This document shows, piece by piece, positions 54,197 through 54,559 of a stretch of 64,000 nucleotides of DNA. The DNA lies in assembly GCA_047459655.1 (NCBI GenBank), contig JAJREF010000005.1, forward strand, positions 1 to 64,000, in the 5' to 3' direction. How positions within the stretch are numbered: position 1 is the stretch's first letter; each line of letters opens with the position of its first letter. Source of the DNA: Rhabdochlamydiaceae bacterium (GTDB lineage: Bacteria > Chlamydiota > Chlamydiia > Chlamydiales > Rhabdochlamydiaceae). A program made the position numbers and the translations under genes. The notes below the pieces were generated by a model. It worked only from the letters and a program-made list of their open reading frames with translations. It was not told where the DNA came from and searched no databases.

Positions 54197-54251
54197 CCTT
54201 CTAAACAATTGTGATATCGAGACCTTTTAATAATCCTACGACTTCCGGAAA

Positions 54252-54414
54252 GAGACCTCTGCATAACTCTGGTGAAACGAAAAAATCGAAGATTTTTTTG
54301 CAGATTTTTGTTTTTACATCGAAGACATACTCTAGAGAGTAGGCGAGATGTGAAAATAAACATCTGCAGAAAAAGCACGATTTGAGCGATTTACCAGAGT
54401 TATGCAGAGGTCTC
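54252..54414. mobile_element. 163-nt palindromic MITE/RPE-like element with 5-bp target duplication GGAAA
   Basis: GAGACCTCTGCATAACTCTGGT...ACCAGAGTTATGCAGAGGTCTC, flanked by GGAAA on both sides. Confidence 0.9.
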
Positions 54415-54559
54415 GGAAAGGAAAATTTCGCTTTTACAAGTTTATTTGTTGCCGGATCAATAGCGTAGTGCCTAGCTGTAGAAAAATCTGCTTTGCAGAG
54501 ATCACAGTTGTGGAATGTGGTTCCTGAGAAATCAACCTGGCTAAAATCTGCATTCTTAA

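What the first reader, a model, noticed from the sequence alone, without database searches (positions are those of the whole stretch)
54247..54419. Rickettsia-palindromic-element-like in-frame peptide insertion in a chlamydia
Seen: in the host frame the element reads without stops as RPLHNSGKSLKSCFFCRCLFSHLAYSLEYVFDVKTKICKKIFDFFVSPELCRGL(FP), 56 codons. Known: Rickettsia RPEs are ~150-nt palindromes that insert in frame into genes. From recall, the GAGACCTCTGCATAA end resembles RPE and IS1106/IS5-type termini. Inference: an RPE-like protein-sequence-creating element in Chlamydiota.
Basis: partly seen in the sequence, partly recalled or inferred. Interest (0 to 1): 0.7.

Follow-up and report, generated by a model that had tools for sequence, protein, structure and literature searches.

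The report
Frame-preserving IS5 hairpin MITE in chlamydia
A 163-base hairpin-shaped mobile element sits in frame in a gene of an uncultured chlamydia, but a second element cuts that gene short upstream, so it likely makes no new protein here; sister copies sit in frame at the start of two intact-looking export-protein genes, as Rickettsia palindromes do, and its ends match an IS5-type transposon that likely moves it.

Summary
Observation confirmed. The 163-bp palindrome (54252-54414) plus a 5-bp target duplication adds 168 nt, 56 stop-free codons, to a pentapeptide-repeat gene; a ~99% identical strain has the exact empty site. But a second, unrelated 166-nt element upstream ends translation at 54556, so this copy is in a broken gene and probably not translated. 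The element is one of 14 near-full copies of a MITE family. Its first 17 bases equal both ends of an IS5-family IS from another genome, and 36 of 51 same-ended elements in several phyla have 5-bp duplications. No cognate transposase was found in this assembly. Two other copies are in frame at gene starts (OppA signal peptide; RND adaptor start codon), with relatives lacking them; no frame-breaking copy was seen in a recognisable gene. It behaves like an RPE but does not match the RPE1 model; elements with RPE1-type ends form a sister class with 3-bp duplications. Translation is untested. The scan noted similar elements in other genomes before. Verdict: new member of a known kind; the flagged copy itself is a dud.

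The parts
54252..54414 (.). E1: 163-bp palindromic MITE (family F3), youngest of 14 near-full copies (2 differences from the family consensus)
54252..54273 (+). left terminal inverted repeat, 22 bp; first 17 nt identical to both ends of an IS5-family IS (L072)
54393..54414 (-). right terminal inverted repeat, 22 bp, perfect inverse of the left
54247..54251 (+). 5-bp target-site duplication GGAAA, copy 1
54415..54419 (+). 5-bp target-site duplication GGAAA, copy 2
54246..54413 (-). 56 inserted codons (RPLHN...ELCRGL-FP), the only open frame of the family consensus; in frame with the host gene's 3' part but downstream of a premature stop
54722..54903 (-). host pentapeptide-repeat gene, 5' part (ATG at 54903); lacks 67 codons at about 54795 relative to the syntenic orthologue of G002
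54560..54721 (.). E2: 162-bp palindromic MITE of another family (F1), TTAA duplication at 54556-54559 and 54722-54725; 166 nt in all, shifts the frame and gives the stop at 54556-54558
54415..54555 (-). host gene, middle part between the two elements (pentapeptide repeats)
54201..54246 (-). host gene, last 15 codons and stop

Best explanation
The element is a 163-bp hairpin MITE with IS5-family ends and a 5-bp target duplication, likely moved in trans by an IS5-family DDE transposase, and this copy lies in a gene already stopped upstream, so it likely adds no protein sequence. Shown: ends, duplication, empty site, copy number, one open frame, upstream stop. Inferred: an IS5 transposase of the GAGACC-end type binds the two ends, and inserts the element at AT-rich sites with a 5-bp stagger. 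Because 163+5 = 168 is a multiple of three and one of six frames is stop-free, about one hit in six inside a gene leaves the reading frame whole. Purifying selection would then remove the disruptive hits and keep those at tolerant places, chiefly the start of signal peptides, which would be cleaved off the exported protein. The peptide is a by-product, not an adaptation. The flagged copy landed recently in a dispensable gene that also took a second insertion and a deletion; the order of these events is not known.
For: Exact empty sites of 168 and 166 nt in a contig with 4 other letters in 330. 5-bp duplication in 6 of 14 copies here and in 36 of 51 same-ended elements from gamma- and betaproteobacteria, Chloroflexota and another Chlamydiales genome. 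A 1194-bp IS in G042 has both ends identical to the first 17 nt of E1 and a transposase scoring 163 bits on NF033581 (cut-off 140); a 73% identical IS5 transposase on a Marinomonas plasmid has GAGACCTCAGCATAA ends. The neighbouring family F1 has its IS5 partner in this genome (C3:6644-7825; 277 bits). In-frame F3 copies: OppA signal peptide, 52 aa, no in-frame start codon after the native ATG before the lipobox, shared with a second strain (P0002, 6 differences in 582) and absent from a 97.5% identical one (P0003); RND adaptor, where the duplication ATGAA doubles the start codon, absent in G001 and G002. In G005, 2 of 5 same-ended copies with both ends found are in frame at the 5' end of long ORFs.
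Against: No GAGACC-type transposase in this assembly (tblastn; 81.6% complete) nor in 251 genomes of the order at E <= 1e-30, although E1 is very young. Neither of the two autonomous IS copies examined shows a 5-bp duplication, so end and duplication are linked only through the MITEs. 8 of 14 copies here lack an exact 5-bp duplication, and the OppA copy matches at 3 of 5 positions. The inside of the element is unrelated to the IS, so it is not a simple deletion derivative. No RNA or protein evidence was obtainable. Open-frame retention in the two gene-resident copies is not beyond chance (simulated 0.645 and 0.35; 3 of the 11 other copies are also open and in register).
Confidence: 0.82

Rival explanations
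1. The flagged copy does create a new protein: E1 inserted first into a working gene and was translated as a 56-aa insert 15 residues from the C-terminus, and either this lasted until E2 arrived or E2 is still bypassed (precise excision in part of the population, or skipping of the hairpin in RNA).
For: E1 is in the one open frame (1 in 6 by chance). The host pieces hold no other stop, and the 67-codon deletion joins two CNFS repeats in register. Both insertions are equally young (1.2% from consensus), so E1-first is possible.
Against: As the sequence stands translation ends at 54556. Run X1, which matches the window letter for letter across the junctions, shows no joint that skips E2 (contigs drop rare variants). 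No strain with E1 but without E2 was seen in 4 of 4 runs laid.
Confidence: 0.1
2. The element is a true Rickettsia palindromic element (RPE-1 or kin) that reached a chlamydia by transfer between intracellular bacteria.
For: Ends differ by about one base from a class (AGACCTCTTGCA..) one member of which matches the RPE1 model weakly (E 0.0013, 18.6 bits; cut-off 30) and sits in frame in a biotin ligase. One element of that class (L132) has a core like E1's (Z 10.9).
Against: E1's peptide has no NCBIfam match at E <= 10; the RPE1 model finds no element in the genome; E1's core is unrelated to the RPE1-matching element L178 (Z 0.6); duplication 5 bp against 3 bp (53 of 71) and length 163 against mostly 142-144. 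Same-ended elements are commonest in free-living gammaproteobacteria.
Confidence: 0.04
3. The hairpin itself, not an IS5 transposase, drives mobility (a structure-reading enzyme acting on single-stranded DNA or RNA); the IS5-like ends are incidental.
For: About 20 palindrome families in this genome cluster at 160-170 bp; nine share a core under wholly different self-complementary ends (Z mostly 4-23, some pairs 1-4); 18 of 32 predicted pairs in a cross-phylum alignment show changes on both sides.
Against: Each end type comes with its own duplication length (5, 4, 3, 2 bp), and two end types match IS5-family elements exactly, which is what DDE transposases produce.
Confidence: 0.04

Closest known systems
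Rickettsia palindromic elements (RPE-1 to RPE-3; Ogata et al. 2000, 2002, seen only through passages of PMC2229807, PMC10969869, PMC3767692, PMC1779305) and Wolbachia WPE
   Same: About 100-170-bp palindrome with terminal inverted repeats and long stem-loop; intracellular bacterium; one open frame; copies both between genes and in frame in existing genes.
   Different: No match to the RPE1 model; 163 bp against 105-146; a clear 5-bp duplication and an identified IS5-type end (PMC2229807 lists the RPE duplication as unknown); only 3 of 14 copies in genes against nearly half for RPE-1 to -3 (PMC10969869), none of them inside an enzyme core; translation unproven, whereas RPE-bearing Gmk was shown active (PMC2229807).
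Bacterial MITEs with long stem-loops (Correia/NEMIS, ERIC, RUP, YPAL, Nezha, QMITE; PMC2229807, PMC3184786, PMC10969869 passages)
   Same: Non-autonomous, under 200 bp, TIRs shared with an IS, target duplication, filled and empty sites, occasional in-frame fusions.
   Different: New sequence family; IS5-type ends with 5-bp duplication rather than IS630/TA; length plus duplication is a multiple of three.
IS5 family, NF033581-type transposases; IS1106 of Neisseria (its GAGACC end is recalled, not tested)
   Same: 17-bp end identical to an IS5-family element of G042.
   Different: No transposase, no internal similarity to the IS; not compared with ISfinder.

Membership tests
MITE (non-autonomous IS-dependent element) | Short, with terminal inverted repeats and no transposase | tested here: met
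   163 bp, 22-bp perfect TIR
MITE (non-autonomous IS-dependent element) | Target-site duplication | tested here: met
   GGAAA at this copy; 6 of 14 copies here, 36 of 51 elsewhere
MITE (non-autonomous IS-dependent element) | Dispersed copies and empty orthologous sites | tested here: met
   14 near-full copies; exact 168-nt empty site; orthologues of OppA and RND adaptor lack it
IS5-family-dependent MITE | Ends shared with an IS5-family IS | tested here: met
   17 of 17 nt at both ends of L072; NF033581 163 bits over cut-off 140
IS5-family-dependent MITE | Cognate transposase in the same genome | tested here: inconclusive
   Not found in an 81.6% complete assembly or in 251 genomes of the order with this query
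IS5-family-dependent MITE | Mobilisation in trans by that transposase | not testable with these tools
   needs a transposition assay
Rickettsia palindromic element (RPE) | Sequence match to an RPE family model | tested here: not met
   No NCBIfam match for the peptide; TIGR01045 finds no element in the genome. Only RPE1 was searched genome-wide; other RPE models only through the library scan of peptides
Rickettsia palindromic element (RPE) | 100-150-bp palindrome folding into a long stem-loop | tested here: inconclusive
   Stem-loop met (z -11.55); length 163 is above the published range
Rickettsia palindromic element (RPE) | In-frame residence in pre-existing genes | tested here: met
   3 of 14 copies; 2 in intact-looking genes, 1 (the flagged one) in a broken gene
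Rickettsia palindromic element (RPE) | Insert is translated and host protein stays active | not testable with these tools
   no RNA or protein data; for the flagged copy the sequence argues against
Rickettsia palindromic element (RPE) | Direct DNA alignment with named Rickettsia RPE consensus sequences | not tested
   No named Rickettsia sequence was in hand; Ogata 2002 not held
Known Rfam RNA family | Score at gathering threshold | tested here: not met
   14 matches in 50500-55200, all below threshold, mostly microRNA hairpins

The most novel reading that the evidence does not exclude
RPE-type protein-invading palindromes are one branch of a cross-phylum superfamily of ~140-170-bp hairpin MITEs whose structured cores persist while their ends are re-tuned, by paired changes, to whatever DDE transposase is at hand (5-, 4-, 3- or 2-bp duplicators). 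End type plus length decides whether a family is frame-preserving; this family (163+5) and the RPE1-type class (144+3) are, and in Chlamydiales they are lengthening real proteins now, mainly in signal peptides and, for a sister family, inside Mfd. This would name the long-unknown RPE mobiliser as an IS5-family transposase and make it testable.
Probability: 0.3. Interest if true: 0.68.

Novelty: new member of a known kind. Interest (0 to 1): 0.38.

Why it matters
How RPE-like palindromes move has been open: a 2008 review (PMC2229807, passages) lists their target duplication as unknown and transposase links as mostly not found. Here an RPE-like family has a fixed 5-bp duplication, exact empty sites in near-identical strains and ends identical to an IS5-family element, which gives a direct assay. 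It also extends in-frame palindrome insertion to Chlamydiales, for which four literature searches listed no report. Against that, in-frame MITE fusions are a known phenomenon, the flagged copy is in a broken gene, and no translation is shown.

Tried and rejected
RPE membership: NCBIfam on the peptide, 0 families; RPE1 model on the genome, 1 unrelated match at E 0.265; 1 of 24 peptides scanned matched RPE1, and it was not from this genome. Rfam: nothing at threshold. Cognate transposase: none in G000 (the 13 DDE_Tnp_1 matches gave one IS5 element with F1 ends), none in 251 genomes at 1e-30. Spread of the peptide: 1 protein among 7 candidates (OppA of this genome), 0 in 1.84 billion representatives; weak evidence for so short a query. 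Whole-element DNA search: full-length copies only in G000 among 41 genomes; no plasmid match. Idea that the palindromes flank a dedicated mobiliser gene (the AAA ATPase at 51172-52641 has one on each side): rejected, 0 of the 7 members of the AAA-ATPase-like paralogue group had both flanks, and the 15 of 1885 called genes with both flanks were unrelated. Promoter/terminator scan: 0 promoter-like sites, 1 terminator-like site outside the element, as in shuffles. Expression: no RNA holder listed. Selection on the open frame: not significant. Whether the two frameshifts in mfd are assembly errors: unresolved, X1 has no cover at one site and the other lay outside the stretch. Duplication at autonomous IS copies: absent in 2 of 2 examined. 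A search for the IS partner of the 3-bp class could not be run because those records are not held as genomes. Ogata 2002 was not held. No supplements were read; those of the RPE papers may hold consensus sequences that bear on the membership test.

Full report
1. Observation. The finding's span is a 163-bp element (54252-54414, here E1) between two copies of GGAAA. On the minus strand it reads RPLHN...ELCRGL-FP, 56 codons without a stop, in the frame of the 3' part of a pentapeptide-repeat gene. The arms are identical for 22 bp and the whole folds into one hairpin (z -11.55). The genome (1.61 Mb, 5 contigs, 81.6% complete) holds 14 near-full and 21 total copies.

2. The host gene is broken. 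The gene starts at 54903, downstream of uvrB. A second palindrome of another family (E2, 54560-54721, TTAA duplication, 166 nt) lies upstream of E1, shifts the frame and stops translation at 54556-54558 after 115 aa. No ORF of 60 aa or more with a start codon covers E1 in its frame. Against the syntenic 189-aa orthologue of G002 the gene also lacks 67 codons between two CNFS repeats; that deletion is in repeat register and need not be lethal alone. Laying four runs: a 330-nt contig of X2 with 4 other letters skips exactly 168 and exactly 166 nt; a more distant strain in X6 lacks E2, continues past 54414 with empty-site letters and has about 200 nt more in the gene; X1, possibly the source sample, bridges all junctions unchanged and shows no empty joint. 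Both copies are the youngest of their families (1.2% from consensus; medians 8.05% and 4.9%). So both insertions are recent, their order is unknown, and this copy most likely yields no protein.

3. What the element is. An exact 5-bp duplication flanks 6 of 14 copies. A scan of species genomes for the paired ends gave 51 loci in gamma- and betaproteobacteria, Chloroflexota and another Chlamydiales genome, 155-174 bp long, 36 of 51 with a 5-bp duplication. In one of these genomes a 1194-bp element has both ends identical to the first 17 nt of E1 and encodes an IS5-family transposase (NF033581, 163 bits, cut-off 140; its frame is interrupted near the 5' end). A 73% identical annotated IS5 transposase on a Marinomonas plasmid has nearly the same ends. 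Neither IS copy shows a 5-bp duplication, and no such transposase was found in this assembly or in 251 genomes of the order. E2's family has its own IS5 partner in this genome (C3:6644-7825). In that sample of 251, 22 genomes hold the end motif and 4 (this one included) hold it many times; the full E1 sequence was found only here among 41 genomes.

4. Does the family create protein sequence? Length is a family constant: 8 of 14 copies are 163 bp, so 168 with the duplication, and the consensus has one open frame of six. A random hit in a gene therefore reads through about once in six. With a crude gene caller of my own (1885 calls) and empty-site tests, 3 of 14 copies lie in coding sequence, all in the open frame, and none was seen to break a recognisable gene. 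(a) The flagged pseudogene. (b) OppA (C5:95064; 151+5 nt, 52 aa) after codon 6 of the signal peptide; the 582-aa ORF is whole and has no in-frame ATG, GTG or TTG between the native start and the lipobox (read); G001 and G002 lack the insert; a second strain carries it (P0002, 6 differences in 582) and a 97.5% identical protein lacks it (P0003). (c) An RND adaptor lipoprotein (C1:313420), where the duplication ATGAA copies the start codon that overlaps the upstream stop, so either start could be used; G001 and G002 lack it. In G005, 7 stretches were fetched, 5 showed both ends, and 2 of these are in frame at the 5' end of long ORFs, one before a lipobox-like motif and one before a GNAT domain; their orthologues were not checked. 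Open-frame retention alone does not prove selection. Nothing shows translation.

5. Mechanism. Shown: ends, duplication, empty sites, one open frame, upstream stop. From established knowledge of DDE transposases and MITEs: ends are bound in trans and a staggered cut gives the duplication. Inferred: disruptive hits are purged, and survivors collect between genes and in signal peptides that are cut off. The peptide is a by-product. Rivals are given in their own section.

6. Comparison. It works like an RPE but is not one by the tests run: no NCBIfam match for the peptide, no RPE1-model match on any element. A metagenome scan with a recalled RPE-1-type end motif gave 71 elements of 133-162 bp, 53 with a 3-bp duplication. 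One (L178, 144+3 nt) matches the RPE1 model weakly (E 0.0013, below cut-off) and is in frame in a biotin-ligase ORF; its organism was not determined. E1's core is unrelated to L178 (Z 0.6) but like that of L132 (Z 10.9), which has the 3-bp-class ends. More widely, this genome holds about 20 palindrome families (275 hits, 145 near-full), nine of which share a core under different ends. One of them (F14) is a 56-aa in-frame insert in mfd that orthologues and the X6 strain lack; mfd has two frameshifts in this assembly, where 10 of 27 partly redundant test ORFs also hit in two frames, so its status is open. Related peptides lie inside a CarB and a RecD-like protein of other organisms.

7. Literature seen: passages of PMC3767692, PMC3184786, PMC10969869, PMC2229807, PMC2267715, PMC5656822, PMC1779305 and bioRxiv 10.1101/2024.01.18.576219; the first third of PMC9769881; search listings only for the rest. 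Ogata 2000 and 2002 were not read. No listing described such elements in Chlamydiota. The scan's own notes report similar in-frame hairpin MITEs in other chlamydial and marine genomes; these are unchecked and not counted as support. The IS1106, Correia, ERIC and REP likenesses are recalled.

8. Verdict. Observation confirmed; interpretation partly supported: right for the family and for the IS5 end, wrong for this copy and for RPE membership. New member of a known kind; interest 0.38. The most novel reading, a superfamily of end-swapping hairpin MITEs that includes the RPEs and names their mobiliser, has probability about 0.3.

Noticed in passing
G000:C3:173199-173368 (L081:2400-2569): Single-copy palindrome of another family (F14) in frame as 56 aa inside mfd; orthologues and strain X6 lack it; mfd has two frameshifts in this assembly, possibly errors.
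   Followed up: partly
G000 genome-wide; window 50815-50976 and 52602-52765 are members: Nine families (F2, F5, F8, F9, F10, F11, F13, F14, F16) share one core but have wholly different self-complementary ends; apparent duplications differ among them.
   Followed up: partly
proteins P0009, P0016, P0011: Peptides like the mfd insert lie inside a CarB, a RecD-like helicase and at the N-terminus of a glycosyltransferase of other, undetermined organisms.
   Followed up: partly
L114-L184: 71 elements with AGACCTCTTGCA ends, 53 with a 3-bp duplication (mostly AAT/ATT); L178 is RPE1-like and in frame in a biotin ligase, L118 in frame in an FAD oxidoreductase. Family F4 of this genome has similar ends and a 3-bp duplication in 4 of 5 copies.
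   Followed up: partly
G000:C3:6644-7825 and C3:54550-55135: IS5-family element (frame interrupted in this assembly) and a 586-bp deletion derivative; both ends of the ~70-copy F1 MITE match its right end for 17 nt, with no internal similarity.
   Followed up: yes
window 52602-52765: An F2 palindrome overlaps the 3' end of the AAA ATPase gene (51172-52641) and supplies its last codons and stop; four similar 3'-end fusions occur elsewhere in the genome.
   Followed up: no
window 62111-62423: An F1 copy abuts or sits inside the end of an F6 element; F1 copies nested in F6 or in tandem with each other recur in the genome.
   Followed up: no
L028, L038, L050, L067, L023, L064: Betaproteobacterial and Chloroflexota elements with the same GAGACC ends enclose GC-rich REP-like units (label recalled), suggesting that the ends capture existing palindromes.
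   Followed up: no
L187:48-923 and L189:241-909 (G005): 163-bp same-ended family, open in both orientations in these copies, in frame at the 5' end of a GNAT-domain ORF and a lipoprotein-like ORF.
   Followed up: partly
window 54896-54970: Strain in run X6 has 1750 other letters between uvrB and the pentapeptide gene.
   Followed up: no
G000 genome-wide: Many genes appear frameshifted (10 of 27 partly redundant test ORFs; median called gene 188 aa), either long-read errors or decay.
   Followed up: partly
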